Shown here: piece after piece, positions 23,806 to 64,000 of the stretch
Layout: the number at the start of each line of letters is the position of its first letter
Numbering within the stretch: position 1 is the stretch's first letter
Assembly (NCBI RefSeq): GCF_018977255.1
Contig: NW_024704755.1
Span: 11,594,001 to 11,658,000, forward strand
Direction of reading: 5' to 3'
DNA: 64,000 nucleotides
Origin: Callorhinchus milii
Lineage: Eukaryota
Position numbers and translations under genes: made by a program
Notes under the pieces: model-generated
Databases searched by the model: none
The model's input: only the letters and a program-made list of their open reading frames with translations
What the model was told of the DNA's origin: nothing

Positions 23806-24840
23806 TTACATATTGCTCTGGGATTCCAGATCATTAACCAGGGAGCCACTTTCCTTTTGCAGCATATTAATGTCTTCTTTGGTGGATTCTTCTTTTGTGT
23901 TTTCGATCATTTGCTCAAACACCTTTGCCAGCTTTGAAGATAGAAAGCCTTGTCGAAAATTGCGAGCAGCAAATGCATAGAGTAAGGGGTTAATGCTGCT
24001 GCTAATGAATGCCAAAGCTCCTGAAAGATATGATCCAGTGTCAGAAATATGCTTGAATCGCGTTGATACTTCCGTCGTTTCTATCAGGATGGAAGCGATT
24101 TCAAGCAGGTTGAACAAATGGTAAGGAAACCAGCAAACAACAAAAACTATCACAATCCTTGCAATCAGCATTGATGTCTGATTTTTCTTCTTATAAGTCA
24201 TTTGCTTTACCCTTTTTCCAACACACATGTAGCACACCGTGAGCACTGTAAACGGAATTGCAAATCCAACCGAAGTCTCCAATCCAAGGCATATAATCTG
24301 CAGTGTGTCGGACTCGTAGAGATGAAGCACACATTGGAGGTGATCGCCGGTAACTTCTACTTTGTTACTGAACAAAGCAGGAAGAGCCAGGAGTAAAGTT
24401 AATGACCACACAACCACCAATACTTTGGCAACAAAAGCATTCTTCCTCCACTTTTGTGAGGCAAATGGGTAGATTACAGCCATGAAACGGTCAATGCTCA
24501 TCAGTGTAATGAAGAACACGCTGCCGTACAAGTTGCAATAAATCAAGACGAGCAGAATTCTACACAAAGCTTCTCCGAAGATCCAGCCATTTGAGATTGC
24601 ATAGATCCACAGGGGCAATGTGATCAGAACAACGGAATCAGCTATTGCTAGGTTGAGGATCAGCAAGGCAGTGGGAGACCGTTGTTTTATCTTCCACACA
24701 ATGACCCAGATAACTAGTAAGTTCCCCGGAACTCCAATAATGTAGGTCAGTCCAAGGATGACGCTGGCAACTATATTTTGAATTTCATCCATTGAGTCAT
24801 ACGTTCCATTGCTGCTGAGAGATTCATTAACCGGCCCCAT
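23806..24840 (-). CDS. LTB4R: Leukotriene B4 receptor-like (BLT family) class A GPCR, intronless, 344 aa, intact
   Basis: Seven hydrophobic segments with GVPGN (TM1), LNLAIAD (TM2), ECL1 WIFG, C3.25 (LCRI), SIDRF (TM3), ECL2 Cys (LQCV), CWFPYH (TM6), NPLLY (TM7). BLT-like hallmarks: KQRSPTALLILNLA, PFASQKWR, ETSVGFAIPF, LAFISSSINP. Family is clear; 1:1 orthology to BLT1 or BLT2 is not established. Confidence 0.9.
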   Translation of the reverse strand: MGPVNESLSSNGTYDSMDEIQNIVASVILGLTYIIGVPGNLLVIWVIVWKIKQRSPTALLILNLAIADSVVLITLPLWIYAISNGWIFGEALCRILLVLIYCNLYGSVFFITLMSIDRFMAVIYPFASQKWRKNAFVAKVLVVVWSLTLLLALPALFSNKVEVTGDHLQCVLHLYESDTLQIICLGLETSVGFAIPFTVLTVCYMCVGKRVKQMTYKKKNQTSMLIARIVIVFVVCWFPYHLFNLLEIASILIETTEVSTRFKHISDTGSYLSGALAFISSSINPLLYAFAARNFRQGFLSSKLAKVFEQMIENTKEESTKEDINMLQKESGSLVNDLESQSNM

Positions 24841-26043: not shown

Positions 26044-26569
26044 CGAATACACGTGAAAGGTTTGACAGATGCACCTTCATGGGGGAAAAAAAGTGATTGT
26101 AATCACAAAGTTATTGTATAGAGTAATTAGTGCATTGAGTTTGAACAGGGCTGAGTAGAGCTGAAATAACAGAAAAAAATAATAATAGGAAAGACAGTTA
26201 ATTGTCTATTTAAAATGAAAGGAACTGATTAACAAATGCCATAGCAATGCAGATAAAAAGGTTTGTGCTCTATGCTAATTTAGGCATCTGGGGAAAGCAC
26301 CTGAAACTTAGCAAATGTCTTTAACTGAGAGAGCAGACAGAAGCAAACCACGGTTCCCATTCCTGAGCTCTGAAATTTCCAATGGTCTTAGCCTTAAGAT
26401 CACTGTCTTCAAATTTAAGATTGTGCATCATTTTGGAAAATGCTTAAATTTAGTTTTAATAATAATAACCTTTGTATTTGATACAGCACCTTATCATGCC
26501 ATTAAGATAGCTCAAAGTGCTTCACAGACTATATTGTAAAGTGGATTGACCATGTATTTTGCGGGCGAA

Positions 26570-33895: not shown

Positions 33896-34924
33896 TTAAG
33901 TGGTCTGCAGAGAATGCATTTCCTGCATAGTGAGGCTAATCTCGGTTCCTGTTTTAATTACGGTTTCCCTCCTGGAATCATCTTTGATGGAATGTGTCAG
34001 CTGATCAAATAACCTGGCGAAGCTGGATGCTCGTAAACCACTTTGAAATTTCCGGGCGGCGAAAGCGTAAAGTATAGGGTTCACGCAGCTATTGATAAAG
34101 GTCAAAGCACCTACGATATGGACTACATGTTCAACAGCATTCTCTAGTGCGTCTGACATGTCCTTGTCCGAGTTCTTCATCAACAGCGCTGTGGTGGAGA
34201 TCATGTTGACGAGGTGGTGAGGCACCCAGCAGATGAAAAACGCCACCATGATACTGACGATCACTTTGCCTGTGTTGTTGGGACGAGTGAAGTTCATCTG
34301 CTTGATTTTTCTGACGATGCAGACATAGCAGACAGTCAGCACTGTGAAAGGGATTGCGAAAGAGACCACAATCTCTAAAACCTGGACTGCTTTCTGCTGT
34401 CCATCTGAAGAGTAATTTCTATAGAAACATTGTTGATTCCCACTGGGGTCCGTGTCTATCTCCTGAACCAATAAGATTGGAATGGAGAAGAGAAAAGCCA
34501 AGATCCAAACTACAAGCACCGTTTTAACAACAACATGGTTCTTCCTCCACTTTTGGATAACAAATGGATAGAGCACAGCCAAGAAGCGGTCGATGCTCAT
34601 CATCATGATGAGGAACACACTGATGTACATGTTGCAGCAAACAATGTAGGAAATAATCTTGCACATAGCCTGTCCAAAGTCCCAGCTGTTTAAGAAGGCA
34701 TAAATCCACAGAGGCAAGGTGATCAGTACCAGGAAGTCAGCAACGGCCAGGTTTAGTATCAACACTACAGTGGGAGATCGCTGCCTCATGGTACAGAGTA
34801 TAATCCAGATGACTAAGAAATTGCCTGGAACTCCGATAAGGAAAGCAGAGCCCAACACTAAACTGGCCGTTATTCCTGCTAGATCGGTCGACTGATCAGT
34901 TTCATTGCTGCTTGACAACTCCAT
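33896..34924 (-). CDS. LTB4R: Leukotriene B4 receptor-like GPCR, intronless, intact (~342 aa from ATG at 34924)
   Basis: ORF track begins at a TTG (34951); first in-frame ATG is 34924 (MELSSSNETD, N-glycosylation sequon). GVPGN, LNLAVAD, WDFG, MCKI, SIDRF, QQCFYRNYSSD, CWVPHH and NPILY are all present. Paralogue of the 23.8 kb gene. Confidence 0.9.
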   Translation of the reverse strand: MELSSSNETDQSTDLAGITASLVLGSAFLIGVPGNFLVIWIILCTMRQRSPTVVLILNLAVADFLVLITLPLWIYAFLNSWDFGQAMCKIISYIVCCNMYISVFLIMMMSIDRFLAVLYPFVIQKWRKNHVVVKTVLVVWILAFLFSIPILLVQEIDTDPSGNQQCFYRNYSSDGQQKAVQVLEIVVSFAIPFTVLTVCYVCIVRKIKQMNFTRPNNTGKVIVSIMVAFFICWVPHHLVNMISTTALLMKNSDKDMSDALENAVEHVVHIVGALTFINSCVNPILYAFAARKFQSGLRASSFARLFDQLTHSIKDDSRRETVIKTGTEISLTMQEMHSLQTT

Positions 34925-35554: not shown

Positions 35555-36415
35555 TAACAACAACAAGATTACATCCCAAGGTGCTGGACAGTGTACAGCA
35601 TTTCAGACCTGAGCTGGGGTCAGGGAGGGAGAAGGGAGGGGAGGGGAAGGGGGGTGACTGATGGCATGGTCGAAGAGGAGGGTTTTGAGGCGGGACTTGA
35701 AGGAGGCTAAGGAGGGGGCGAGGCGGAATGATTGGGGGATGAAGTTCCAGAGGTTGGGGGCAGAGTGGCTGAAGGCTTTCCCGCCACTGGTGGGGCGGGT
35801 GGGACGGGGGACGTGGAGCAGGCCGGAGCCTGCTGAGCAGAGGGAGCGGGCAGGTTGGTAGGGGGTTAGGAGGTCACAGTGGTAGCATGGGGTGAGGACA
35901 TGGAGAGCTTTGAGGTGAGGACCAGGATCTTGAACTGGATCCTCTGAAGGATAGGGAGCCAATGGAGTCGGGCGAGAATGGGGGAGATGGGGTCACAGAG
36001 TTTGGTGCGGGAGAGGACACGGGCTGCAGAGTTCTGGATTATCTGCAGCCTGTGGAGGGAGGAGTTGGGAAGGCCGACAAGCAGAGCGTTTGCATAGTCG
36101 AGCCTGGAGGTGATGAAGGCATGAACAAGAGTTTCAGTGGCCTGAGGGGTGAGGTAGTGACAGAGTCGGACTATGTTACGGAGGTGAGGGAAGGCAGAGC
36201 GGGTCATGGCTTGGATAGGGGGGGGGTTGAACAAGACCCCTAGGTTCCTGACTGGCTTGGTGAGTTGAAGTGTGCAACCATGGAGGTTGATGCTGCCAGA
36301 GCCTGAGGTGCTGAGGCGCTGGCGTGAGCCAATCAGAAGGGCCTTAATCTTCTTCACATTCAACTGTAGGAAATTTTCCCTCATCCAGGACTTGACGTCC
36401 GACAGGCAGTCTGAA
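35555..36415 (-). mobile_element. L2 LINE 3' fragment
   Basis: NFLQLNVKK...ETLVHAFITSRLDYANALLVGLP...LQIIQNSAARVL...LHWLPI. Confidence 0.9.
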
Positions 36416-36639
36416 TTACTTTAATAATAATAAGAATAATCCTTGTATTTGATATAGCGCTTTTCACGTCGGGAGGACGTCCCAAAGCGCTTCACAGAAC
36501 TTTAAGCAATTCATCACACACAAAAGATATATGTACTAATAGCTGACAGCAAATTTCAAACTAGCAAGTATGTAAAAATAGAAAGGGTTGTTTGGGAAAA
36601 AAAGCTTTTTTAAAATTTAATTTGCTGCTGTGGCCCCTA

Positions 36640-40109: not shown

Positions 40110-41180
40110 TACAATACAATATTACATTTGTAAAGTGCCTTTCATGTCTGGAGGACATCTCAAAGCACTGAACAGTCAGGGTCATTAGGACCTGAGCAGG
40201 ATGGGGATTTGGGATCAGGGAGGGTGGAGGGCAGAGAAAGTAGGAGAGTGGCCGAAGATATGGTCGAAGAGAAGAGTTTGGAGACTCACCTTGAAGAAGG
40301 CAAGGGTGGGTATGACGGGGTCACGGAGCATGGTGCGAGAGAGGACACGAGCGAAGAGTTCTGGATGATCTGCAGCCTGTGGAGGGAAGTTTTGGGAAGG
40401 CCGATAAGCAAGGAGTTGGCATAGTCGAGCCTACATGTAATGAAGGCATATATGAGGGTTTCAGCGGCCTGAGGGGTGAGGCAGGAGTGGACTCAGGCAA
40501 TGTTGCAGAGGTGGGGAGAAGGCAGAGGGAGTTCATGGCACGGATGTGGGGGAGAAAGGACAGTTGAGGTTCGAACAAGATGCCTAGCGTCCTGACTGGC
40601 TTGGTGAGGTGGAGTGTGCATCTGTGGATACTGATCCTGCCAATGCCTGAGGTGCAGAGGGGCTGGCATGAGCTAATCAGGAGAGTCTTGGTTTTGCTGA
40701 CGTTCAACTGTAGAAAGTTGACTCTCATCCAGGACTTGATGTTTGACAGGCACTCGGCAGGACAGCAGTGGTCCTGGAGTCAAGGGTGGAGGCAGAGATA
40801 TAGAGTTGGGTATCATCTGCAAACATGTGGAAGTTGACCCCATGTCTGCGGATGATGTCACCAAGAGGGAGCATGTCCAGGTTGAAGAGGAGAGGACCAA
40901 GGACAGATCCCTGAGGAACATTGCACCAGACGGTGCAGGGGCTGGACGAGAAGCTGTTTGTGGAGACAGTGGAGCTGGTGTGAGAGACAGGATCTGAACC
41001 ATTCAAGGACAGAACCTTGAAGGTTAAGTTAAGAGGAGAGGTGGTGGAAGAGGATGGAGTGGTCCACATTGTTGAAGGCAGCAAAGAGGTCAAGGAGAAT
41101 GAGGAGACAGAGGGAGCCCTGATCAAAGATGGACAGAATGTCATTTGTCACCTTGTCCAGGGCTATTTCCACACTGTGGG
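40110..41180 (-). mobile_element. L2 LINE fragment (RT + 3' end)
   Basis: [40 protein letters not shown]; [11 protein letters not shown]...LLDLFAAF. Confidence 0.9.
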
Positions 41181-43560: not shown

Positions 43561-43942
43561 TAGGATTAGCAGTGTTACTAACAAAAGTTAAAACTTTAGA
43601 AAGCATCGAAATGTAACTATAAATACTTTCAATCTTTTCGAGTATTCTGGGTTTGAAGTCTTGTTCAGCACTGACGAAACCTTAATGACATTTCTTGTAT
43701 GATATGGTAACCAGCAAAGTGCAAACAGAATCACCACACCCACAATCAGCCTTCCAGTTTTATTCTTGCCCTAGGTTTGGAAGATTGACTCTTTTGAAAA
43801 CAGACCATCAGTGTGATGAACGGAATGACAAATCCAATCAAGGTTTCCAGCAGAAGAACTGTGATCTGCTGCTGATCAGATGAATATTCTCGTTTTAAAC
43901 GTGGGCGCCCATCTCTGATGTCAGTGGATGACAGGAATAGCG
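43561..43942 (-). pseudogene. Deleted fragment (TM4 end to TM7) of the divergent LTB4R-like clade
   Basis: Close DNA match to 53300-53712 (e.g. CAGAAGAACTGTGATCTGCTGCTGATC) with several small internal deletions. The 5' half and C-terminal tail are missing, and it joins directly to the shared 3' flank. Confidence 0.85.
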
Positions 43943-45303: not shown

Positions 45304-46314
45304 TTATGGATCAATTCGTTCTTCTGTTTCCCTTCCTGAGTTTTCTTCTGCATTGTCCCTTCCTGGATTTTGAAGTTCTTCAGAAGGACGGTTTATATAT
45401 TCAAAGAGTTTAGCAAAACTTAAGATTTTAAACCCAGCCTTAAATCTCCGGGCAGCAAATGCATACAGAATAGGGTTACTGCAGCTGCTGATGAAAACTA
45501 AGGTTCCAGTAACAATATCCATTGTTTCAACAATGTTTTTTAATGTCAATGCAAATTCAGAGTTGCTGCTTTCGATCATCAGTGAAGAAATTGTGATGAT
45601 GTTTGTTATTTGATAAGGCGACCAGCAAAGTACAAAAGTTACTACAACCCCTATAATTAACTTTTCAGATTTCCCTCTTGTTTGAAAGGTCATTTGTTTT
45701 ATTCTTTTGAAAACAATGGTGTAACAGACCAACAGAGTGGTGAAAGGAACGACAAAACCAACCAAGAGCTTAAACAGACAAATTACTATTTGTTGCTGGC
45801 CGGACGAGTAGGAAGTCACACATTTTAGCTGTCCATTTCTATTTTCTAATTTTTGGATAATGAGAGAATAAATAGCAATCAGAAAAGCTGAAACCCAAAT
45901 ACTGATGATTGCTTTACCAATAAATCCATGAGTAGCAAATGGGTAGAGCGCAGCCATCAGGCGCTTGACACTCACCAAGGTGATGAAGAACAGACTGGCA
46001 TATAAAGAACAGAAGATGAGGAAGGTCGCAGTTTTACAGAACAGCTCTCCATAGACCCAGCCATTGACCAGGGAATGAATCCACAGCGGCAGAGTGATGA
46101 GCACGATGAAATCTGCAAAGGCCAGGTGCAATATCAGCTGGATAGTGGGAGATTTTGTTTTAATGTGGCGAAGAATAATCCAGATCACTAAAGCATTTCC
46201 CGGTCATCCTACAAGAAAAACGATACCAAGAACAACACAGCTCACTGCATTTTGCACTGGTCTAAAAGTGTGAAGAGTTGCATTCTGATCCACAGGGATA
46301 TTGGACAGCGCCAT
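45304..46314 (-). pseudogene. Full-length LTB4R-like pseudogene with an in-frame TGA at codon 37
   Basis: From ATG 46314: MALSNIPVDQNATLHTFRPVQNAVSCVVLGIVFLVG*PGNALVIW, TGA at 46206-46204, in frame with the 294-aa ORF. DRY-type motif reads VKRL, ICL2 is shortened and the TM4 Pro is replaced by Tyr. Confidence 0.85.
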
Positions 46315-50057: not shown

Positions 50058-51065
50058 TTAGGCTGGTATTTCACTTGTCTCGTTCTTCTCTTTGGAAGAA
50101 TTGTTCATTTGTTCAAAGAGTCTTGCGATACTGGACATTTTAAATCCACTCTTGAAGCTCCGAGCAGCAAATGCATAGAGGACAGGATTAGCGGTGTTAC
50201 TAACGAAAGTTAAAACTTTAGAAAGCATCGAAATGTAACTTTCAATACTTTTCAATCTTTTCGAGTATTCTGGGTTTGAAGTCTTGTTCAGCACTGACGA
50301 AACCTTAATGACATTTCTTGTATGATATGGTAACCAGCAAAGTGCAAACAGAATCACCACACCCGCAATCAGCCTTCCAGTTTTACCCTTGTCCCTGGTT
50401 TGGAAGTTCATCAGTTTGACTCTTTTGAAAATAAAAGTGTAACAGACCATCAGTGTGATGAACGGAATGACAAATCCAATCAAGGTTTCCAGCAGAAGAA
50501 CTGTGATCTGCTGCTGATCGGATGAATATCTTCGTTTTAAACGTGGGCGCCCATCTCTGATGTCAGCGGCAACCACTAGGATGACAGGAATAGCGAAGAG
50601 AAAACCTGAAAGCCAGACAGCAGTGACCACTTTACCAACATGTCCTCGTTGCCACCACTTCTGAGCGGTGATCGGATAGAGCACAGCCACAAAGCGCTCA
50701 ATGCTCATGACTGTGATGAGGAACACGCTGGTGTACATGGATGAGAAGAGTAAATAGCCGCTGATTTTCCAGAAAACCAATCCAAGGAACGGAGCATTTG
50801 CAATATCGGAAGCGAAAAAAGGCACCGAGACGAGAGCCATGAGATCTGCCACAGCCAGGTTTAATATCAGCGAGACGGTGGGAGATCGGTGCTTAATATT
50901 CATGAAGATATTCCAGATCACTACGGAATTCCCTGTTGCTCCAACAAGAAAAATAAAACCATAGACACAGGCAATTGCAGTACGCACTGCAACATCAGTG
51001 TGATGAGTTGTATTCAGTCCTGAAGACATGTTGGCCGGCATCATTCTGGTAACAATTTGCTCCAT
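50058..51065 (-). CDS. Divergent LTB4R-like GPCR, copy 1 (335 aa; lacks C3.25 and ECL2 Cys)
   Basis: Intact ORF (ATG 51065, or the second ATG of MMPANMS). GATGN, LNLAVAD, SIERF, CWLPYH, NPVLY; shares KHRSPTVSLILNLA and YAFAAR with the other cluster genes. Confidence 0.88.
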   Translation of the reverse strand: MEQIVTRMMPANMSSGLNTTHHTDVAVRTAIACVYGFIFLVGATGNSVVIWNIFMNIKHRSPTVSLILNLAVADLMALVSVPFFASDIANAPFLGLVFWKISGYLLFSSMYTSVFLITVMSIERFVAVLYPITAQKWWQRGHVGKVVTAVWLSGFLFAIPVILVVAADIRDGRPRLKRRYSSDQQQITVLLLETLIGFVIPFITLMVCYTFIFKRVKLMNFQTRDKGKTGRLIAGVVILFALCWLPYHTRNVIKVSSVLNKTSNPEYSKRLKSIESYISMLSKVLTFVSNTANPVLYAFAARSFKSGFKMSSIARLFEQMNNSSKEKNETSEIPA

Positions 51066-51279
51066 TGCTTTTACAATCAGTTGTGCACAGAAAGCTCTCT
51101 CCAGAAACCATTCAAATACCGTTCTTTAAAGTAATCAGCTGCTGTTTCAGACAGAAGAAGTGCTCTGTGCTTTCACCACTAGCTATTTTACAGAACTGAT
51201 AACAGCATTGCAGAAGAGTATTGTTTTCCCAAACGTAATGCAACATTGCAACATGAGCAAAAGACATTCTGCTAACAGA

Positions 51280-51855
51280 AACTCCGCCCACTTCTCCCCC
51301 CGCCATCGCTCCTCTGCTGTCTTGAAGTCATCTGAATTCCTCCCCGTCTGGACTTGCTCCAGTAATGACCTATCTTCCTCGGTTACTCTCCTCCACAACT
51401 TCCTCTCCACCACTCTTGATGCCCTTGCTCCCCTCACCATGTCCTACTAACGAAAGTCACCCTGTTACACCAGTCAACTCTGCTCCCTTAAGACAGAGGT
51501 GCCTGCTGCTAAATGCACCATCTTAAGGGTCCATCAGCAGATCTGGCTGGAGCTTATCAAATCTTACTGCTCTGCCCTCGCCTCCTCTAAGTCGTCGTTC
51601 AACTCCAAGACAATCTTGGAGACCAAGGACAACCCCAGGCTCTTCTTCTCTATCACCAACTGGCTCCTCTGCCCACCCTCTCACGCCTCACCCATCCTCA
51701 CCTCCAACTCGCCAACTGCGAGGTGATGCTGGACTTCCTCGAAACCAAATTCGAGGGGATCCGCTCAGTTGCCTCTGTCCTTCCATCTACTACTCCCTCC
51801 CCTCTCTCCTCTCTCTCTCACCCATCCCCACCCTCTCTCCCAGTCTCTCTCCCAA
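51280..51855 (+). mobile_element. L2 LINE internal relic ~220 bp upstream of the divergent receptor (copies at 54400-54975 and inverted at ~58230-59005)
   Basis: LHNFLSTTLDALAP, HQQIWLELIKSY...ILETKDNPRLFFS match the L2 at 61.6-62.0 kb. Confidence 0.8.
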
Positions 51856-53172
51856 GCGCGGGTCACCCTCTGCAGCTGCAGGAGCCGGTGATTGGTTGCT
51901 AAGGACGTGGTTGGTAAGAGACGCGCTTGACTTCCTGACACATTGCAGTAAAGGCTCTGCGCACTGCATCCTTCCAACCGCCGGCTCCTGCTGCTGCCCT
52001 GGGAGGACGTTCACCAGGGAAGGGCGGGAGCGGGTTGGAATGTTGGGAATGGTCTTGGGGCAGATGCGGCCCACGGGCCACTTGGCGGCACACGCTGGTT
52101 GCTGCCTGTGGACCTTTCTCAAATAGGGAATGCTGCCCACGGCAGCCAAAAGGTTGGACCACTCTGACGTAATGGAATGAAGATGTAATTTTGTCACACA
52201 CTGTCTCGGAAGTACTGACAGGAAATGTTTCTATGCAGACACACAGCAGTTCATTATTTTATAGGCCAATACGTATTGTTACACATTGTTGTTGCGAGGC
52301 TTCAATAGGGAAATCTAATTGTACCACCTGGTTTATCAAATGGGGAAGAATCCAAAATACCCACCCACAAACATGAGTAAATTTAGCGAAGTTTGGGGAA
52401 CGAACCCTATAAATAACATTAAGACCGTAGCTGTTTGAAGCAGACTTGTTGAAGGAAAAGATGCTGGCAATCCATTCATGACATTAACTCAAAACACGGG
52501 ATCACTGAGCAAATGCATTGCTCCGTATGGTGATCAGATACATTTACAAGGAAGCATCAAAGATTAATTCCTGATGGGTGTATAAAGGGAAGCCGTAAGA
52601 GAGCTGGGGTCCGACACACTCTTTAAGCAGAAAAAGGCCACAGATGACAAAGTGTTTATTATCGATGTCTTACTGAACAGCGTGAAAATGGATAATTGAT
52701 CAAACGGCAGTTGTTGACTTGCAACTTTATGGATTCTTGCACTTGTGGAATAAACAAAGCAATCAATGTTGCCTCCACTGTATAACAGTTCTACACTAAC
52801 ACAAAAATACCTTTCATACATGTATAATACCAAATATCAAACAATCAAATATCAAAAATGCAAGGAATATTATTATGATACTATTCCACGCACCCACCCT
52901 GCTAGCTAACAGCTGTGACTGAATAACAATCGAAGTGAACCATCAGACAACCTAATAAACGATTATAAACTATGCTTTGCAACTATCTATGTACCAGTCA
53001 ATGTTGACTCATTCTGCAGGAAAATACAATTGAGATAAAAAAAGAGATTGTCTAAACATTGTTTTTTTAAAGAAGCAGTATGCAACAGGATTGTAAATGT
53101 ACAGAGGAATGTTTTGGTAAGAGTATCTCCATTACCAAGTCGAATACATTTAAAAATTCATGCAGCTGTGGT

Positions 53173-54162
53173 TTAGATTAGTATTTCACTTGTCTCTTGG
53201 TTCTTTTCTTTGGAAGAATTGTTCATTTGTTCAAAGAGTCTTGCGATACTGGACATTTTAAATCCACTCTTGAAGCTCCGAGCAGCAAATGCATAGAGGA
53301 TAGGATTAGCGGTGTTACTAACGAAAGTTAAAACTTTAGAAAGCATCGAAATGTAACTATAAATACTTTTCAATCTTTTCGAGTATTCTGGGTTTGAAGT
53401 CTTGTTCAGCACTGACGAAACCTTAATGACATTTCTTATATGATATGGTAACCAGCAAAGTGCAAACAGAATCACCACACCCGCAATCAGCCTTCCAGTT
53501 TTACCCTTGTCCCTGGTTTGGAAGTTCATCAGTTTGACTCTTTTGAAAATAAAAGTGTAACAGACCATCAGTGTGATGAACGGAATGACAAATCCAATCA
53601 AGGTTTCCAGCAGAAGAACTGTGATCTGCTGCTGATCGGATGAATATCTTCGTTTTAAACGTGGGCGCCCATCTCTGATGTCAGCGGCAACCACTAGGAT
53701 GACAGGAATAGCGGAGAGAAAACCTGAAAGCCAGACAGCAGTGACCACTTTACCAACATATCCTCGTTGCCGCCATTTCTGAGCAGTGATCGGATAGAGC
53801 ACAGCCACAAAGCGCTCAATGCTCATGACTGTGATGAGGAACACGCTGGTGTACATGGATGAGAAGAGTAAATAGCCGCTGATTTTCCAGAAAACCAATC
53901 CAAGGTACGGAGCATGTGCAATATCAGAAGCGATAAAAGGCACCGAGACGAGAGCCATGAGATCTGCCACAGCCAGGTTTAATATCAGCGAGACGGTGGG
54001 AGATCGCTGCTTAATATTCATGAAGATATTCCAGATCACTATGGAATTCCCTGTTGCTCCAACAAGAAAAATAAAAACATAAACACAGGCAATTGCAGTA
54101 CGCACTGCAACATCAGTGTGATGAGTTGTATTCAGTCCTGAAGACATGTTGGCCGGCATCAT
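53173..54162 (-). CDS. Divergent LTB4R-like GPCR, copy 2 (tandem duplicate, ~329 aa from ATG 54162)
   Basis: About 98% identical to the 50058 copy. The upstream ATG is TTG here, so the first ATG is MMPANMS at 54162. All TM motifs are intact. Confidence 0.88.
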   Translation of the reverse strand: MMPANMSSGLNTTHHTDVAVRTAIACVYVFIFLVGATGNSIVIWNIFMNIKQRSPTVSLILNLAVADLMALVSVPFIASDIAHAPYLGLVFWKISGYLLFSSMYTSVFLITVMSIERFVAVLYPITAQKWRQRGYVGKVVTAVWLSGFLSAIPVILVVAADIRDGRPRLKRRYSSDQQQITVLLLETLIGFVIPFITLMVCYTFIFKRVKLMNFQTRDKGKTGRLIAGVVILFALCWLPYHIRNVIKVSSVLNKTSNPEYSKRLKSIYSYISMLSKVLTFVSNTANPILYAFAARSFKSGFKMSSIARLFEQMNNSSKEKNQETSEILI

Positions 54163-56276
54163 TCTGGTAACAATTTGCTCCAATGCTTTTACAATCAGTT
54201 GTTCGCAGAAAGCTCTCTCCAGAAACCATTCAAATACCGTTCTTTAAAGTAATCAGCTGCTGTTTCAGACAGAAGCAGTGCTCTGTGCTTTCACCACTAG
54301 CTATTTTACAGAACTGATAACAGCATTGCAGAAGAGTATTGTTTTCCCAAACGTAATGCAACATTGCAACATGAGCAAAAGACATTCTGCTAACAGAAAC
54401 TCCGCCCACTTCTCCCCCCCGCCATCGCTCCTCTGCTGTCTTGAAGTCATCTGAATTCCTCCCCGTCTGGACTTGCTCCAGTAATGACCTATCTTCCTCG
54501 GTTACTCTCCTCCACAACTTCCTCTCCACCACTCTTGATGCCCTTGCTCCCCTCACCATGTCCTACTAACGAAAGTCACCCTGTTACACCAGTCAACTCT
54601 GCTCCCTTAAGACAGAGGTGCCTGCTGCTAAATGCACCATCTTAAGGGTCCATCAGCAGATCTGGCTGGAGCTTATCAAATCTTACTGCTCTGCCCTCGC
54701 CTCCTCTAAGTCGTCGTTCAACTCCAAGACAATCTTGGAGACCAAGGACAACCCCAGGCTCTTCTTCTCTATCACCAACTGGCTCCTCTGCCCACCCTCT
54801 CACGCCTCACCCATCCTCACCTCCAACTCGCCAACTGCGAGGCGATGCTGGACTTCCTCGAAACCAAATTCGAGGGGATCCGCTCAGTTGCCTCTGTCCT
54901 TCCATCTACTACTCCCTCCCCTCTCTCCTCTCTCTCTCACCCATCCCCACCCTCTCTCCCAGTCTCTCTCCCAAGCGCGGGTCACCCTCTGCAGCTGCAG
55001 GAGCCGGTGATTGGTTGCTAAGGATGTGGTTGGTAAGAGACGCGCTTGACTTCCTGACACATTGCAGTAAAGGCTCTGCGCACTGCATCCTTCCAACCGC
55101 CGGCTCCTGCCGCTGCCCTGGGAGGACGTTCACCAGGGAAGGGCGGGAGCGGGTTGGAATGTTGGGAATGGTCTTGGGGCAGATGCGGCCCACGGGCCAC
55201 TTGGCGGCACACGCTGGATGCTGCCTGTGGACCTTTCTCAAATAGGGAATGCTACCCACGGCAGCCAAAAGGTTGGACCACTCTGACGTAATGGAATGAA
55301 GATGTAATTTTGTCACACACTGTCTCGGAAGTACTGACAGGAAACGTTTCTATGCAGACACACAGCAGTTCATTATTTTATAGGCCAATACGTATTGTTA
55401 CACATTGTTGTTGCGAGGCTTCAATAGGGAAATCTAATTGTACCACCTGGTTTATCAAATGGGGAAGAATCCAAAATACCCACCCACAAACATGAGTAAA
55501 TTTAGCGAAGTTTGGGGAACGAACCCTATAAATAACATTAAGACCGTAGCTGTTTGAAGCAGACTTGTTGAAGGAAAAGATGCTGGCAATCCATTCATGA
55601 CATTAACTCAAAACACGGGATCACTGAGCAATGCATTGCTCTGTATGGTGATCAGACACATTTACAAGGAAGCATCAAAGATTAATTCCTGATGGGTGTA
55701 CAACGGGAAGCTGTAAGAGAGCTGGGGTCCGACACACTCTTTAAGCAGAAAAAGGCCACAGGTGACAAAGTGTTTATTATCGATTTCTTACTGAACAGCG
55801 TGAAAATGGATAAATGATCAAACGGCAGTTGTTGACTTGCAACTTTACAGTTTTTTGCACTTGTGGAATAAATGAACAAAGCATTCAATGTTGCCTCCAC
55901 TGTATAACAGTTCTAGACTAACACAAAAATACCTTTCATACATATATAATACCAAATTTCAAAAATGCAAGGATTATTATTGTGATACTATTCCACGCAC
56001 CCACCCTGCTAGCTATGAATGTGACTGAATATAAACAACGCAAACCATCAGGTAACCTAATAAGCTATTATAAAATGTGTTTTACAATTATCTATGTACC
56101 AGTCAATGTTTACTCATTCTGCAGGAAAATACAATTGCAATAAAAAAAGAGATTGTCTAAACATTGTTTTTTAAAGAAGCGGTCTGCAACAAGATTGTAA
56201 ATGTACAGAGGAACGTTTTGGTAAGAGTATCTCCATTATCAATTTAAATAGATTTAAAAGTTCACGCAGCTGTGGT

Positions 56277-56848
56277 TTAGATTAGTATTTCTCTCGTCTC
56301 TTGGTTCTTTTCTTTGGAAGAATTGTTTATTTCATCAAAGAGTCTTGCGATACTGGACAATTTAAATCCACTCTTGAAGCTCCGAGCAGCAAATGCATAG
56401 AGGATAGGATTAACTGTGTTACTAATGAAAATTAAAACTTTTTGGGTTCCAATGCAATTACCCATACGTTTCAATCTTTTGGAGAGTTCTGGGTTTGAAG
56501 TCTTGTTCAGCACTCACAAAACCTTAATGACATTTCTTGTATGATATGGTAACCAGCAAAGTGCAAACAACATCACCACACCCACAATCAGCCTTCCAGT
56601 TGTACCCTTGTCCTTGGTTTGGAAGATCATCTGTTTGACTCTTTTGAAAATAAAAGTGTAACAGACCATCAGTGTGATGAACGGAATGACAAATCCAACT
56701 AAGGTTTCCAGCAGAAGAACTGTGATCTGCTGCTGATCGGATGAATATCTTCGTTTTAAACGTGGGCGCCCATCTCTGATGTTAAAGGTGAGCACTAGGA
56801 CAACAGGAATAACGAAGAGAAAAGCTGAAAGTCAGTCAGCAGTGACCA
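56277..56848 (-). pseudogene. 5'-truncated pseudogene of the divergent LTB4R-like clade
   Basis: Reads VTAD*LSAFLFVIPVVLVLTFNIRDGRPRLKRRY...KVL*VLNKTS...NPILYAFAAR. TM4 Trp is mutated to TGA, there is a second in-frame TGA at 56516-56514, and homology ends at ~56848. Confidence 0.9.
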
Positions 56849-57044
56849 ATCTGCTTCTCACTCTTGCAGTATGCGACTGATCCAATTTCCAGATGATTTC
56901 TTCAATTAGGAGAGATAGCGAATCTGGGGGCTGAAGCCAATAAAAAGGACAACATTGATGATTTAGGTGGAACCCAAGGAAGAACAATAGCAATAGGTCA
57001 CAAGATTGGGTCAGATAAAGAAGGCTCTTGGCTCATCTGATCTC

Positions 57045-57393
57045 ATCCCTGTAACTTGGTGGTTAGAGCACTCACCTCGCAAGCAAGAGGACCTGAATTT
57101 GATTCCTGGGCAGTACGAAACGTTAGGCAAGTTTCCTTACTCCACTCGCCTGTTTTCCCTAGCAGTAAGTAGGAACACGGTTGTTAGTCAATTGGCAGAT
57201 CAATTTTCCGGGTGTAATAATCCCATCAAAAAAAATAATTTGGTCACTCAATACTTTGTGCACAACTGGCTGCTGTGTTTTGCCCACAAAATATAGTCAA
57301 TTCACTTTACAGTATATTCTGTGAAGCGCTTTGAGACATCTCAAAGACGTCATAAGGTTCTATGTAAAATGCAAACATTATTCTTATAATTAT
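57045..57393 (+). mobile_element. tRNA-derived SINE, longer subfamily
   Basis: TGGTGGTTAGAGCACTCACCTCGCAAGC head, GGCAAGTTTCCTTACTCCA, shared core and tail. Confidence 0.8.
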
Positions 57394-58029
57394 CGCTCCA
57401 AAATACCCACCTGACCATCCGCCAATCACAGTATCACTTTACTCTCTAAATGACGTCAGTGTCCTGGCCTCAACCTCCCTTCTCAGCAACTTGTTCTAGT
57501 CGTTAATTAGTTTCCAAGTGAAGAAAAATTTCTGCTGGCTGTCCTGAAATTGCCCTTTGCTACTCCAAACCTATGTCCTCTTGTTCTACTGTCTTGGTGC
57601 ACCCCAAAGTATTTATTGTTCTGGCCTTAGATTTTCAATCCCATTTGAAACTTTATACACATCTATGGGGTCTTACGTTCACAATGAAATAATTCAGAGA
57701 AGTGGTTGAGTATCAGAAACTAAGAAGATGTACACAGAGAACAGAATGAATTCAGCACAGCAGAAACCAGAAATCGATTCATTTGGCCAAACACATGCTC
57801 TTGACCAAGTAGTGTTAAATTCTCTTAAATTGGGAGCAGACTCTAATTTGAGACAGAACTTAAGAATTTAGAAAATGGAGCCTTGAAATTTCACCTGTTC
57901 TTAGCCTGTAAAAACCCGTTGTCCTACACTTTCAAAATCTCTATGAATTGTGGCAAGTTCTTAAGTTGTGGATTTTGGGGAGGAGATTTGAGGCGGGCTG
58001 TGCAGGTTTGGAGAACAATGAGGTTGGAA

Positions 58030-58225
58030 GACATCTCTTCCTCCTCCCCAAGATTCACACACAGGACTACCTTGGTAGACACATCGTTTCAACCTGTTTG
58101 TGCCCCACAGAACTTATTTCCTCTTACCTAGATTCTATTTTTCCCTCTTTTGTCCAGTTCTTACCCACCTACATCCATGACTCTTCTGACGCCCTCCATC
58201 ACTTCAACCACTTCCAGTTTCCAGG
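58030..58225 (+). mobile_element. Penelope-like element reverse transcriptase fragment
   Basis: LFLLPKIHTQDYLGRHIVSTCLCPTELISSYLDSIFPSFVQFLPTYIHDSSDAL resembles the Penelope RT motif FYxLPKIHK..GRPIVS...PTYIxD. Confidence 0.8.
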
Positions 58226-58499
58226 AAGGGTTTTTTAAGGATAAGAGTGATGACGGCAGATTTTAAAGGCATGGGAATGGTACCAGTAGACACAAAGAGG
58301 TTTATGATATCTGTGAGTAGAGGGGCAAGGTAGGTAAGTAGGTAAGGAGAGGAGTAGGGATTGGGTTGAGGGGGCAGGTGGTTGGTTTCATGTGGGTGGT
58401 GAGAGAGGAGTGGGAGATGGGTTCGAAGATGTGGAGGAAAGGACGGGTAGCAGCTAGGGTGTGAGGGGAAGATGGAGAGAGGGTAGTAGAAGGAAGGGC

Positions 58500-60945
58500 T
58501 GAAGCAGCTGAGCAGATCCTCTCGAATTTGGTTTTGTCCAGCATTGCCTCACAGTTGGCGTTGGTGGTGAGGATGGGTGAAGTGTGAGAGGGTGGGCGGA
58601 GGAGCCGGATGGTGATGGAGAAGAGGAGCCTGGGGTTGTCTTTGGTCTTCAAGATTGTCTTGGAGTAGAATGACGATTTAGCGGGGATGAGGGTAGAACC
58701 ATAAGATTTGATAAGGTCCAGCCAAATCTGCTGAAGGATTTGAGCCAGGTGCGTTCAGCAGCTCACACTTGTGCCTTAAGGGAGCATAGGTGGCTGGTAT
58801 ACCAGGGTGACTTTCGTCTGTAGCAGATGCTTCAAGAAGTGAGGGGAGCAAGGGCATCGAGAGTGGTGGAGAAGGAGTGTGGAGGAGAGTGACCGAGGAG
58901 GAGAGGCCATCGTGGGAGGAAGCCTAGAGTGGGAGGAGTTCAGATGACTCCAAGGCAGTGGAGAAGGAGGCGTAGGGGCGGGGGGAGATTTTTCTCCAAC
59001 AACCACTAGTTTCTGTGAACAGATATATTCTTCTGCAATGCTATTATCAGTTCTGTAAAATAACTAGTGGTGAAAGCACAGAGCACTGCTTCTATCTAAA
59101 CAAGTAGACGATTACTTTAAACAACTGTATTGAATTGTTTCTGGAGAGAGCTTTCTGTGCACAACTGATTGTAAAAGCAACGGAGCAAATTGTTACCAGA
59201 ATGATGCCGGGCAATATGTCTTCAGGACTGAATACAACTCATCACACTAATGTTGCAGTGCGTACTGCAATTGCCTGTATCTACGGTTTGATTTTTCTTG
59301 TTGGAGCAACAGGGAATTCCATAGTGATCTGGAATATCTTCATGAATATTAAGCACCGATCTCCCACCGTCTCGCTGATATTAAACCTGGCTGTGGCAGA
59401 TCTCATGGCTCTCGTCTTGGTGCCTTTTATCGCTTCCGATATTGCAAATGCTCCGTTCCTTGGATTGGTTTTCTGGAAAATCAACGGCTGTTTACTCTTC
59501 ACATCCATGTACACCAGCGTGTTCCTCATCACAGTCATGAGCATTGAGCGCTTTGTGGCTGTGCTCTATCCGATCACCGCCCAGAAGTGGTGGCAACGAG
59601 GACATGTTGGTAAAGTGGTCACTGCTGTCTGGCTTTCAGGTTTTCTCTTCGCTATTCCTGTCATCCTAGTGGTTGCCACTGACATCAGAGATGGGCGCCA
59701 ACGTTTAAAACGAAGATATTCATCCGATCAGCAGCAGATCACAGTTCTTCTGCTGGAAACCTTAGTTGGATTTGTCATTCCGTTCATCACACTGATGGTC
59801 TGTTACACTTTTATTTTCAAAAGAGTCAAACAGATGAACTTCCAAACCAGGGACAAAGGTAAAACTGGAAGGCTGATTGTGGGTGTGGTGATGTTGTTTG
59901 CACTTTGCTGGTTACCATATCATACAAGAAATGTCATTAAGGTTTTGTCGGTGCTGAACAAGACTTCAAGCCCAAAATTCTCCAAAAGATTGAAAAGTAT
60001 TTATACTTACATTTCGATGCTTTCTAAAGTTTTAACTTTTGTTAGTAACACCGTTAATCCTATCCTCTATGCATTTGCTGCTCGGAGCTTCAAGAGTGGA
60101 TTTAAAATGTCCAGTATCGCAAGACTCTTTGAACAAATGAACAATTCTTCCAAAGAAAAGAACCAAGAGACAAGAGAAATACTAATCTAAACCATAGCTG
60201 CGTGAATTTTTAAATCTATTTAAATTGATAATGGAGATATTCTTACCAAAATGTTCCTCTGTACATTTACAATCTTGTTGCAGACTGCTTCTTTAAAAAA
60301 CAATGTTTAGACAATCTTTTTTTATTCAATTGTATTTTCCTGCAGAATGAGTAAACATTGACTGGTACATAGATAGTTGTAAAACACAGTTTATAATAGC
60401 TTATTAGGTTACCTGCTGGTTTGCGTTGTTTATATTCAGTCACATTCATAGCTAGCAGGGTGGGTGCGTGGAACAGTATCATAATAATAATCCTTGCATT
60501 TTTGATATTTGTTATCATATATGTATGAAAGGTATTTTTGTTTTAGTGTAGAACTGTTGTACAGTGGAGGCAACATTGAATGTTTTGTTTATTCCACAAG
60601 TGCAAGAAACTATAAAGTTGCAAGTCAACAACTGCCGTTTGATCATTTATCCATTTTCACGCTGTTCAGTAAGAAATCGATAATAAACACTTTGTCACCT
60701 GTGGCCTTTTTCTGCTTAAAGAGTGTGTCGGACCCCAGCTCTCTTACAGCTTCCCGTTATACACCCATCAGGAATTAATCTTTGATGCTTACTTGTAAAT
60801 GTATCTGATCACCATACGGAGCAATGCATTGCTCAGTGATCCCGTGTTTCGAGTGAATGTCTTGAATGGATTGCCAGCATCTTTTCCTTCAACAAGTCTG
60901 CTTCAAACAGCTACGGTCTTAATGTTATTTATGGGGTTCGCCTCA
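58500..60945. repeat. Inverted duplicate of the receptor unit (L2 relic + promoter + gene + 3' flank)
   Basis: Reverse complement matches ~52400-54900 and 55520-56280, including the upstream L2 relic and the downstream flank. Confidence 0.88.
59201..60190 (+). CDS. Divergent LTB4R-like GPCR, copy 3 (inverted, ~329 aa from ATG 59201)
   Basis: Intact ORF closely similar to copies 1 and 2 but on the opposite strand. The ORF-track start at 59135 is TTG; first ATG is 59201. Confidence 0.88.
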   Translation: MMPGNMSSGLNTTHHTNVAVRTAIACIYGLIFLVGATGNSIVIWNIFMNIKHRSPTVSLILNLAVADLMALVLVPFIASDIANAPFLGLVFWKINGCLLFTSMYTSVFLITVMSIERFVAVLYPITAQKWWQRGHVGKVVTAVWLSGFLFAIPVILVVATDIRDGRQRLKRRYSSDQQQITVLLLETLVGFVIPFITLMVCYTFIFKRVKQMNFQTRDKGKTGRLIVGVVMLFALCWLPYHTRNVIKVLSVLNKTSSPKFSKRLKSIYTYISMLSKVLTFVSNTVNPILYAFAARSFKSGFKMSSIARLFEQMNNSSKEKNQETREILI

Positions 60946-61329: not shown

Positions 61330-61582
61330 CTGCTTGGCTGCCGTCAGCACCTCCACCCTCAGGCACTGACAGCATCACCATCCAAGGTTGCACACTCCAC
61401 CTTACGAAGCCTGTCCGGAGACTTGACATCTTGTTTGAATCTCCACTATCCTTTCTATCCCACATTTGTGCCATGACCCACTCTGCCTCCACAACATCTC
61501 CCAGCTCCGACGCTGTCTCACACCACAGGACGCTGAAACCCTCATACACACATTCATAACATCCAGGCTTGACTATCCAAAC
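61330..61582 (+). mobile_element. Older L2 fragment (continues at 63697-63752)
   Basis: SITIQGCTLHLTKPVR, AETLIHTFITSRLDY; resumes after the young L2 as LHVGFLNTSLHGLQIIQN. Confidence 0.7.
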
Positions 61583-63695
61583 TCCTCTGAACTCCTCTCC
61601 CTCTGGCCTTCAACCCTCACTGACCCCTCTTCTCCTCTCACCCTCCTCCACAACACCCTCTCCTCCACACTCAACACTTTTGCCCCCATCACCTCCCGTA
61701 CTGTCTCCTACTCTCGCTTCTCCCCCTGGTTCACCACCCACCTCCGCTCACTGAAGAGCCAGGTGCGGGCCGCTGAACGCACCTGCCTCAAATCTGGCCT
61801 AACGGTCCACCGACAAATCTGGCTGGACCTCTTCAAAATCTACCGCTCCACTTTAGCCTCGGCCAAGTCGTCCTTTTACTCCAGGATAATCCTGGAGGCG
61901 AAGAACAACGCCAGGCTTCTGTTCTCCACCACATCTCCTCCATCCCCCCCGCCACCCCGCGCAGGTCATCTCCTCCAACCTTCACTGTGAGGAGATGCTG
62001 GATTTACTTGAATCCAAAATCAAGGGAATCCGCTCCACGGTCACCTCCCCTCCAACCTCCACCCACCCTCCACCCCCTCCCTCCCACACTCCGACTCCTA
62101 CCCATCCTCCCCTACACACCTGTACCCGTTTCCTCACCCTCTGTCACCAAACTCATCCTATCCCTGAAACCCACCACCTGCTCCCTTGACCCCATCCCCA
62201 CTCCACTCCTTATCTCTCAGCTCCACCTCCTTGCCCCACATATCACAGACATCATCAACCTGTCCCTCTCCTCTGGCTCTGTTCCCATTCCCCTAAAAAC
62301 TGCCACCATCACTCCCACTTTGAAAAAACCCTCCCTTGATGCGTCGCAGCTATCAAGCTACCGGCCCATCTCCAACCTCCCCTTCCTGTCCAAGGTCCTC
62401 GAAAGAGTTGTCGCCTCCCAACTGCGCTCTTTCCTCTCCACCCATTCATTATTCGAACCTCTTCAGTCGGGTTTCCGTGCTGCCCACAGCACAGAAACTG
62501 CCCTGGTCAAGGTCACCAATGACATCCTGACCATCTGCGACCAGGGCTCCCTCTGCCTCCTCGTCCTCCTCGACCTATCGGCAGCATTCGATACGGTCGA
62601 CCACGCTATCCTCCTCCACCGCTTGTCCTCCCACCTCAACCTTCAAGACCCTGTCCTTGAGTGGTTTAGGTCGTACCTCTCCCACCGTCTTCATTTTGTT
62701 TCCACAAACGGCTTTTCCTCCACCCCCCGCACTGTCTCGTGCGGTGTCCCTCAGGGCTCTGTCCTCGGTCCCCTCCTCTTCACCCTCTATATGCTCCCCC
62801 TTGGTGACATCATCCGCAGACATGGGGTTAACTTCCACATGTATGCGGATGACACCCAACACTACATTTCCTCCTCTACCCTCAACTCCACGACCACCGA
62901 CGTCCTGACAGCTGCCTGTCCGACATCGAGTCCTGGACAAGAGACAACTTTCTTCAGCTCAACGTGCGTAAAACTGAGGCCCTCCTGATTGGCTCACGTC
63001 AGCGCCTCCGCACCTCAGGGGCTGATAGCATCAGCATCCAAGGCTGCACTCTCCACCTCTCAAAGCCATCAGGAACCTCGGGGTTCTGTTCAACTCTGAG
63101 CTGTCCTTTCTTCCTCATATCCGCACCACAACTGGCACCACTTTCCATCACCTCCGAAATATCGCCAGACTACGGCACTACCTCACCCCTCACGCTGCTG
63201 AAACTCTGGTCCATGCCTTTGTCACCTTAAGGCTGGACTATGGGAACTCTCTCCTCGTCGGCCTTCCCGCCACCTCCCTCCACACTGCAGGTCATTCAGA
63301 ACTCTGCAGCTCGTGTGCTGTCCCGCACCAGACACCGCGACCACATCACTCTCACCCTCGCCCTCGCCTCCACTGGCTCCCCATCCCCCAGAGGATCGAA
63401 TTCAAGAACCTCATCCTCACCTTCAGCCTCTCAGCCCCTAGGCTCTGGAACTCTATCCCCCAGTGCCTTCGCCTTGCTTCCTCCCTTTCCTCCTTCAAGG
63501 CCGGTCTCAAGACCTTTCTCTTTGACTGTGCCTTCAGCTCCCCTCTCAACTCTCTACCTCCTCCTCGCTCCCTCCCTTCCCTCCCCTCACCCTAACCATT
63601 TCCCCCCTGCTCGGGTCCTGAATCAACTGTACAGCGCCTTGGGACGTCCTCCCGACGTGAAAGGCGCTCTATAAATGGAATCCTGTTATTGTTGT
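61583..63695 (+). mobile_element. Relatively young L2 LINE, 2.1 kb, 5'-truncated, RT with frameshifts, nested in an older L2
   Basis: [59 protein letters not shown]; 3' end GCGCCTTGGGACGTCCTCCCGACGTGAAAGGCGCTCTATAAAT followed by TTG repeats. Confidence 0.92.
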
Positions 63696-63978: not shown

Positions 63979-64000
63979 ATGATGCCGGGCAATATGTCTT
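63979..64000 (+). CDS. Start of a further divergent LTB4R-like copy (runs off the window)
   Basis: ATG ATG CCG GGC AAT ATG TCT (MMPGNMS) is identical to the start of the 59201 copy, preceded by ~210 bp homologous to the upstream flank of the other copies. Intactness unknown. Confidence 0.7.

What the first reader, a model, noticed from the sequence alone, without database searches (positions are those of the whole stretch)
50058..60190. Amplified BLT-like receptor clade lacking the conserved TM3-ECL2 disulfide
Seen: in the three intact young copies (50.1, 53.2, 59.2 kb) the C3.25 position is Trp (LVFWKI, versus ALCRI, AMCKI and LFCKT in the older paralogues). ECL2 has no Cys (DIRDGRPRLKRRYSSD versus GDHLQCVLHLYESD and SGNQQCFYRNYSSD), and ECL1 WxFG is replaced by APFLG/APYLG. 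Activation motifs (LAVAD, ERF, CWLP, NPxxY) remain intact. Known: this disulfide is near-universal in class A GPCRs including BLT1/2; exceptions include S1P, LPA1-3, cannabinoid, melanocortin and MRGPR receptors. Inference: paired loss of both Cys with a preserved signalling core and repeated duplication suggests a remodelled extracellular face with a new ligand or activation mode, rather than decay.
Basis: partly seen in the sequence, partly recalled or inferred. Interest (0 to 1): 0.88.

Follow-up and report, generated by a model that had tools for sequence, protein, structure and literature searches.

The report
Disulfide-free orphan receptors of cartilaginous fish
Four recently duplicated chimaera genes of an orphan receptor family, related to but separate from the leukotriene B4 receptors, lack a disulfide bond that about nine in ten such receptors have, as does a related gene kept across sharks and rays, and they likely still signal but to a different, still unknown ligand.

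Summary
Observation confirmed. Three intact copies (50.1, 53.2, 59.2 kb), plus a fourth starting at 63,979, have Trp at 3.25, no ECL2 Cys and APF/YLG for WxFG. Two corrections. (1) The cluster is not BLT1/2: it is the orphan sister family GPR190A (si:dkey-148a17.5/6), which lacks the LTB4 polar residues. (2) The loss is not tied to the young duplication: the same C3.25W type stands in 11 of 11 related shark and ray proteins, and a third shark lineage lacks C3.25 but has a new ECL1 Cys. Trees cannot decide between one old loss (about 55%) and parallel losses. Decay is unlikely: the chimaera lineage changed 10 of 21 conserved extracellular positions and 0 of 39 intracellular ones (p=5e-6), gaining D2.63 and K7.39. 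Among the young copies dN/dS is about 1, yet conserved positions are spared (1 of 50 vary, p=5e-4). Best reading: a working receptor with a rebuilt, basic outer pocket for a non-LTB4 anionic ligand; ligand, trafficking and coupling are untested, expression evidence is weak. Ten paper searches found no description; the scan had no earlier look-alike finding. New variant of a known kind.

The parts
50058..51044 (-). Copy D, intact W3.25-type GPR190A-like receptor CDS (328 aa)
50769..50771 (-). TGG (Trp) at position 3.25 of copy D, Cys in the paralogues
50517..50564 (-). Cys-free, basic second half of ECL2 of copy D; predicted beta-hairpin kept
50217..50219 (-). Lys at 7.39 of copy D (Gly in nearly all other family members, Ile271 in human BLT1)
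53173..54162 (-). Copy E, intact, in a 3.1 kb tandem unit 95.6% identical to the D unit
56280..56855 (-). Fragment H: 3' half only (TM4 onward), one in-frame stop
59201..60190 (+). Copy F, intact, inverted
63979..64000 (+). Start of copy G, intact; continues in L001:979-1968 beyond the window; divergent ECL3/TM7; matched by contigs of runs guessed to be RNA
43561..43942 (-). Fragment K: ECL2 to TM7 piece of the same type with frameshifting deletions
45304..46314 (-). Paralogue C, keeps both Cys, broken (stop at 46204-46206, KRL for DRY)
33896..34924 (-). Paralogue B, intact, keeps both Cys; has shark and ray orthologues
23806..24840 (-). Paralogue A, intact, keeps both Cys; has shark and ray orthologues

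Best explanation
These are intact tandem copies of an orphan GPR190A-family receptor that lack both cysteines of the TM3-ECL2 bond and likely still work as ligand-gated receptors, for an inferred anionic ligand other than LTB4. Shown: both Cys gone; Trp at 3.25 in all 4 chimaera and 11 shark/ray proteins; activation motifs and the deep BLT-like residues (M3.36, Y3.37, E5.42, G5.46, W6.48, Y6.51, H6.52, N6.55, F7.43) kept; LTB4 polar trio (H3.29, R4.64, R7.35) absent; K/R at 6.58 in all 15; outer loops net basic. Inferred: Trp3.25 packs against the ECL2 hairpin in place of the disulfide (CB1 also has an aromatic at 3.25); the ligand is an acid, most likely a fatty-acid derivative whose tail uses the kept tunnel and whose head meets K/R6.58 and, in the chimaera, K7.39 and R6.54; coupling is Gi-type as in BLT1. 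The chimaera lineage then rebuilt the TM2/ECL1/TM7 wall a second time and multiplied by birth-and-death duplication with sequence exchange between copies. Odds by step: family functional 0.85; at least one chimaera copy functional 0.75; not an LTB4 receptor 0.9; anionic ligand 0.5; lipid ligand 0.35; single old origin of the loss 0.55.
For: W3.25 in 11 of 11 shark/ray proteins from 11 genera, 10 of 11 with no ECL2 Cys, all full-length and keeping ECL1 W. Chimaera lineage: 10 of 21 extracellular vs 0 of 39 intracellular conserved columns changed, Fisher p=4.7e-6 (12 of 31 vs 2 of 54 at the 80% cut-off); the broken paralogue C shows no such bias, 3 vs 3. Among D-G, 1 of 50 conserved vs 57 of 278 other columns vary, p=5e-4. 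Pocket table, read against BLT1 mutagenesis (PMC8894450 passages; PMC4349892 Discussion). Net charge of ECL2 plus TM6-top/ECL3/TM7-top: chimaera +4 to +11, shark/ray W type -1 to +4, paralogues A -2 to -7, B -4 to -8. AlphaFold2 with 150 sequences: pLDDT 87, 7TM, ECL2 hairpin kept; BLT1 (7vkt) TM-score 0.77/0.86. Cys-to-Ala mutants of other receptors mostly fold and reach the membrane (PMC10419011 abstract and Introduction). Weak: contigs of three runs only guessed to be RNA match copy G with 0-1 differences.
Against: dN/dS among the young copies is 0.70-2.09, none significantly below 1. Lack of stops among 88 changes is not significant (expected 2.8, P=0.06), and the test with shark-invariant sites gave p=0.054. 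Three of nine units in the cluster are broken. The ECL1 Trp, usually needed for folding (recalled), is lost in the chimaera copies. The 10 changed columns cluster in TM2/ECL1, so they are not independent events and the p-value is too small. The structure model rests on an alignment mostly of Cys-keeping proteins; with the 13 W-type sequences alone pLDDT was 51. Charge is a crude guide: shark W-type values overlap the Cys-keeping Y paralogue (-1 to +7). No ligand is known for any GPR190 member. In PMC10419011 loss of the bond reduced G-protein signalling in rhodopsin-like receptors and abolished arrestin recruitment.
Confidence: 0.5

Rival explanations
1. The shark/ray Trp3.25 gene is a working receptor, but the chimaera copies are drifting duplicates under relaxed selection, mostly redundant or dying.
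For: dN/dS about 1 among D-G; two fragments and one broken paralogue in the cluster; WxFG lost; shorter C-tail, 38-39 vs 42-73 residues after NPxxY; no listed run is on record as RNA.
Against: No conserved intracellular column changed on a stem of 0.56 changes per site; conserved columns spared among the copies; four ORFs intact.
Confidence: 0.2
2. The receptor is ligand-independent or self-activated: a freed, basic ECL2 and the S7.46N change at the sodium site raise basal signalling, and copy number tunes output.
For: S7.46 is a sodium ligand in BLT1 (PMC8894450 passage) and is Asn in all four copies; the disulfide-less MrgD has high basal activity (PMC9287403 passages).
Against: D2.50, S3.39, S7.45, N7.49, E3.49 and W6.48 are kept; the 11 shark/ray proteins keep S7.46; pocket residues are conserved as if for a ligand.
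Confidence: 0.15
3. History rival (compatible with function): C3.25W arose twice, once in elasmobranchs and once in chimaeras; the chimaera copies are orthologous to the shark X lineage or sister to the Cys-keeping paralogue C.
For: Without the trait columns the chimaera copies do not group with the shark W type (summed RELL 0.016) and 59 of 105 arrangements stay in the AU set; Cys to Trp needs one base change; chimaera copies and X share changes at 2.53-2.60, ECL1 W, 7.39 and 7.40; D and C are closer at silent sites (dS 0.85) than either is to A or B (1.3-2.0).
Against: With all columns the three best trees hold all C3.25-less lineages as one clade (summed RELL 0.41); W monophyly is not rejected, p-AU 0.37; shared K/R6.58, F3.33 and shortened GRP-type ECL2.
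Confidence: 0.4
4. The copies are LTB4 or 12-HHT receptors (BLT paralogues) that merely tolerate loss of the bond.
For: BLT1 is the best PDB sequence match, E=3e-41; databases name them 'leukotriene B4 receptor 1-like'; no closer BLT1/2 gene was found in this assembly.
Against: They fall outside the BLT1/2 clade (support 0.999 for BLT1/2); R4.64 is R/K in 13 of 13 BLT rows and Val here; H3.29 and R7.35 are absent; Lys replaces I7.39 in the tunnel; sharks and rays have separate true BLT genes (P0259, P0268).
Confidence: 0.07

Closest known systems
GPR190A orphan receptors (Rinne et al. 2019, PMC6504862; zebrafish si:dkey-148a17.5/6)
   Same: Same clade: hits named Si:dkey-148a17.5/6 are among the nearest relatives and the paper's supplement equates these with GPR190A; sister to LTB4R.
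   Different: Sampled bony-vertebrate members keep C3.25. The paper's main text has no mention of shark, elephant shark or Callorhinchus and names no ligand in the passages seen.
Human BLT1 (LTB4R; PDB 7vkt, 7k15) and BLT2
   Same: Best solved relative by sequence; deep tunnel residues and activation motifs shared.
   Different: BLT1 has the TM3-ECL2 bond (PMC10570957 passage) and needs H3.29, R4.64, R7.35; all are absent here.
Disulfide-less class A receptors: MRGPRD, CB1, melanocortin receptors (PMC9287403 passages); S1P and LPA1-3 (recalled)
   Same: No C3.25/C45.50; CB1 has an aromatic (F189) at 3.25 lining the pocket (PMC8894450 passage).
   Different: Those are old families with short ECL2 or a substitute bond (MrgD C4.64-C5.33). 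The W type keeps a near full-length ECL2 (28-29 vs 30-31 residues), has no substitute extracellular bond and sits beside Cys-keeping sister genes.

Membership tests
Class A (rhodopsin-like) GPCR | 7tm_1 domain and pivots N1.50, D2.50, R3.50, W4.50, P5.50, P6.50, P7.50 | tested here: met
   Pfam E 1e-43 to 1e-45; all pivots in 4 of 4 copies
Class A (rhodopsin-like) GPCR | C3.25-C45.50 disulfide (92% of members per PMC10419011 Introduction) | tested here: not met
BLT1/BLT2 (LTB4R/LTB4R2) | Falls inside the BLT1/2 clade | tested here: not met
   FastTree of 83 proteins
BLT1/BLT2 (LTB4R/LTB4R2) | Polar ligand residues R4.64, R7.35 and (BLT1) H3.29 | tested here: not met
   V4.64, S/E7.35, G3.29
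BLT1/BLT2 (LTB4R/LTB4R2) | Tunnel residues M3.36, Y3.37, E5.42, G5.46, W6.48, Y6.51, F7.43 | tested here: met
BLT1/BLT2 (LTB4R/LTB4R2) | Activation by LTB4 or 12-HHT | not testable with these tools
   needs a cell assay
GPR190A | Groups with si:dkey-148a17.5/6 and the gar, bird and reptile relatives, next to LTB4R | tested here: met
   the paper's Ensembl ids were not matched directly
GPR190A | Same chromosomal neighbourhood as in bony vertebrates | tested here: inconclusive
   A Cas-family gene (best match p130Cas/BCAR1) lies about 10 kb beyond copy G; neighbours in other species not seen
MRGPR-type disulfide-less receptors | Substitute TM4-TM5 (C4.64-C5.33) bond | tested here: not met
   no such Cys

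The most novel reading that the evidence does not exclude
One tandem cluster in cartilaginous fish holds three answers to the most conserved bond of class A GPCRs: kept (A, B, Y), replaced by an invariant Trp (W type, reached once over 400 million years ago or twice in parallel), and moved (shark X type, where the ECL1 Trp became Cys and could pair with the ECL2 Cys, in carpet sharks an exact Trp/Cys swap with 3.25). The Trp form binds a new anionic ligand and was amplified under selection on its pocket in chimaeras.
Probability: 0.3. Interest if true: 0.72.

Novelty: new variant of a known kind. Interest (0 to 1): 0.52.

Why it matters
The TM3-ECL2 bond is usually studied by mutating it away, which harms signalling; natural exceptions are old families without close bonded relatives. 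Here bonded, bond-free and possibly re-bonded receptors are neighbours at 41-54% identity, so swaps can show directly which residues make the bond dispensable and what that does to ligand choice and arrestin recruitment. It also extends the orphan GPR190A family to cartilaginous fish and shows that the database name 'leukotriene B4 receptor 1-like' is misleading for it.

Tried and rejected
Expression: no RNA holder listed; laid runs are contigs only guessed to be RNA, no splice joint into a coding copy was seen, and copy F was largely without cover in them, which proves nothing. The AU test used fast constrained searches that missed the optimum (the free tree held a clade that the constrained run scored 15.9 lower); its rejection of one hypothesis was discarded and replaced by all 105 arrangements. 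Segment-wise likelihoods showed no clear mosaic. True BLT1/2 were not found in this assembly (111 of 567 and 119 of 254 candidates scored), not taken as loss. 134 short ORFs left of the cluster gave no Pfam match. ESM Atlas gave only generic GPCR clusters. Rejected: assembly artefact (D/E units differ by 4.4%; other database records carry the same type; a separate run holds both G-type and D/E-type letters); BLT1/2 orthology; a substitute disulfide in the W type.
Full report
1. Observation. The window is G000:C14:11594001-11658000; the nearest named proteins are from Callorhinchus milii, so the genome is taken to be that chimaera (inference). It holds a tandem cluster of single-exon class A GPCR genes: A (23806-24840), B (33896-34924), fragment K (43.56-43.94 kb), C (45304-46314, broken), D (50058-51044), E (53173-54162), fragment H (56.28-56.85 kb), F (59201-60190, + strand) and G (from 63979, + strand, finished in L001). 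D, E, F and G are intact, have TGG at 3.25, no Cys in ECL2 and APF/YLG for WxFG; LAVAD, ERF, CWLP and NPxxY are intact.

2. Family. BLT1 is the best solved relative (E=3e-41), but a FastTree of 83 proteins puts the cluster outside BLT1/2 (support 0.999 for BLT1/2), with bird, reptile, lungfish and ray-finned-fish genes; rays and sharks have separate true BLT genes. Several of those relatives are named Si:dkey-148a17.5/6, which Rinne et al. 2019 call the orphan GPR190A (PMC6504862: passages; supplement search and part 3 of 4). In BLT1, R156(4.64)A, H94(3.29)A and R267(7.35)A almost abolish activity (PMC8894450 passages; PMC4349892 passages and Discussion). R/K4.64 stands in 13 of 13 BLT rows, in 3 of 18 bony-vertebrate family members as R, and is Val here; H3.29 and R7.35 are absent. 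The deep tunnel residues are kept.

3. Spread of the loss. Three homologue searches and one profile search (lists capped at the best 120 or 150) gave, over 363 aligned rows, C3.25 in 336, W in 19, gap in 6, A in 1, N in 1. The 19 are 7 chimaera rows, 11 shark and ray proteins (Heptranchias, Pristiophorus, Heterodontus, Rhincodon, Chiloscyllium, Mustelus, Narcine, Hemitrygon, Mobula, an Amblyraja cluster, Rhinoraja; one cluster per species) and one X-type protein. The 11 keep the ECL1 Trp, have an ECL2 one residue shorter than the chimaera's, and 10 have no ECL2 Cys. No named bony-vertebrate protein had W3.25; more divergent forms could lie below the caps. A further shark lineage X lacks C3.25 and has Cys at the ECL1 Trp position together with an ECL2 Cys in 3 of the 4 aligned proteins.

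4. One loss or several. Chimaera W, shark/ray W, X, Y and C form one clade (98/99; 33 rows, trait columns dropped) whose inner order is open. W monophyly is not rejected (p-AU 0.37) and not shown. Over all 105 arrangements, 69 (all columns) and 59 (trait columns dropped) stay in the AU set; the clade of all C3.25-less lineages has summed RELL 0.41 and 0.16, chimaera W plus shark W 0.22 and 0.02. With the N-terminus included the three best trees hold the C3.25-less clade, by about one log unit. Shared K/R6.58 (15 of 15), F3.33 and the GRP-type loop favour one origin; the one-base Cys-to-Trp step, the TM2/7.39 changes shared with X and the low D-C silent distance (0.85) allow two. I put one origin at 55%.

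5. Selection or decay. Of 60 columns at least 90% conserved in 42 Cys-keeping members, the four chimaera copies changed 10, all in the extracellular half (2.53-2.62, ECL1 W, 3.25, G7.39K, S7.46N): 10 of 21 vs 0 of 39, p=4.7e-6; broken C changed 3 and 3; the shark W type changed 1 and 3. The sites cluster, so the p-value overstates. Among the young copies dS is 0.02-0.06 and dN/dS 0.70-2.09, none significant, which counts against strong purifying selection; but only 1 of 50 conserved columns varies against 57 of 278 others (p=5e-4; p=0.014 at the 70% cut-off; p=0.054 with shark-invariant columns), and no stop arose among 88 changes (2.8 expected, P=0.06). Variation is densest in ECL3 and the top of TM7, much of it in G. 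This fits birth-and-death evolution with a constrained core.

6. Structure and expression. AlphaFold2 gave pLDDT 51 with 13 W-type sequences and 87 with 150 mostly Cys-keeping ones, with an ECL2 hairpin at 157-170; BLT1 7vkt aligns at TM-score 0.77/0.86. The model shows compatibility with the fold, not how the loop is held. Contigs of three runs of one study, only guessed to be RNA, match G with 0-1 differences (L009:7887-8052, 8110-8634, 8861-9163 in X1; 8173-8388 in X2; 8208-8389 in X3, a part that is identical in D). No splice joint was seen, so DNA carry-over is not excluded: weak evidence.

7. Mechanism. Shown: bond lost, Trp fixed, core kept, LTB4 residues absent, outer face basic (chimaera +4 to +11; A and B -2 to -8). 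Inferred: Trp3.25 supports the hairpin and lines the pocket, as F3.25 does in CB1 (passage); an anionic ligand, perhaps a fatty-acid derivative, uses the kept tunnel and meets K/R6.58 and K7.39; Gi-type coupling as in BLT1. Loss of the bond in other rhodopsin-like receptors mostly spares folding but lowers G-protein signalling and abolishes arrestin recruitment (PMC10419011 abstract and Introduction), so weak arrestin coupling is a testable prediction. Rivals: drift of the chimaera copies (0.2), ligand-independent activity (0.15; MrgD precedent, PMC9287403 passages), LTB4/12-HHT receptor (0.07).

8. Novelty. Ten full-text searches found no paper on a disulfide-less BLT-like or GPR190 receptor; 'GPR190' in this sense appeared only in PMC6504862 by the listing, and 'dkey-148a17' and 'leukotriene B4 receptor 1-like' with 'shark' gave no papers. 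Subscription journals and other papers' supplements were not searched. PMC10570957 was read as passages. The scan's own notes had no look-alike by sequence and nothing on this cluster among the 8 of 103 shown by place. Disulfide-less class A receptors are known, and the proteins are in databases under generic names; the new part is a conserved Trp3.25 lineage, a possibly re-bonded sister lineage and a second, chimaera-only rebuild with amplification inside one orphan cluster. Verdict: real, new variant of a known kind, interest 0.52.

Noticed in passing
P0216, P0217, P0357, P0358, P0407, P0408 (shark proteins): Second C3.25-less lineage (X): Cys in place of the ECL1 Trp plus an ECL2 Cys in 5 of 6 proteins (3 are near-copies), neither in Scyliorhinus; Leu at 3.49. 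Possible relocated ECL1-ECL2 disulfide. In carpet sharks Trp stands seven residues after the new Cys, the spacing of 3.25.
   Followed up: partly
L002:1278-2648 (-), about 10 kb beyond copy G: Exon of a Cas-family gene, best match p130Cas/BCAR1. Human LTB4R lies near the Cas paralogue EFS on 14q11-12 (recalled), so GPR190 and LTB4R may be whole-genome-duplication sisters.
   Followed up: partly
copy G vs F (L001:979-1968; window 59201-60190): Mosaic: 6 differences in the first 500 bases, 44 in the last 290; G's divergent tract covers ECL3/TM7. Points to sequence exchange between copies.
   Followed up: partly
P0008 (Rhincodon): The only W-type protein with an ECL2 Cys, at or next to the 45.50 column, without a partner at 3.25.
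   Followed up: no
G000, whole genome: No true BLT1/BLT2 gene found with frog and ray queries; may be an assembly gap.
   Followed up: partly
P0409/P0412/P0357 records (Chiloscyllium punctatum): Consecutive accessions GCC27012 (Y), 27013 (W), 27014 (X) suggest the three genes are neighbours in that order.
   Followed up: partly
window 61439-63595 (-), 26529-27314 (-), 35866-36420 (-), 40321-40779 (-): ORF pieces with a YADD motif that look like LINE reverse transcriptase fragments (recalled motif); one lies between the inverted copies F and G.
   Followed up: no
Y-type shark proteins (P0016, P0019, P0022, P0024, P0125): Y5.58 is Asn in 5 of 6 and F7.43 is Val/Thr, an altered activation switch in a Cys-keeping neighbour.
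   Followed up: no
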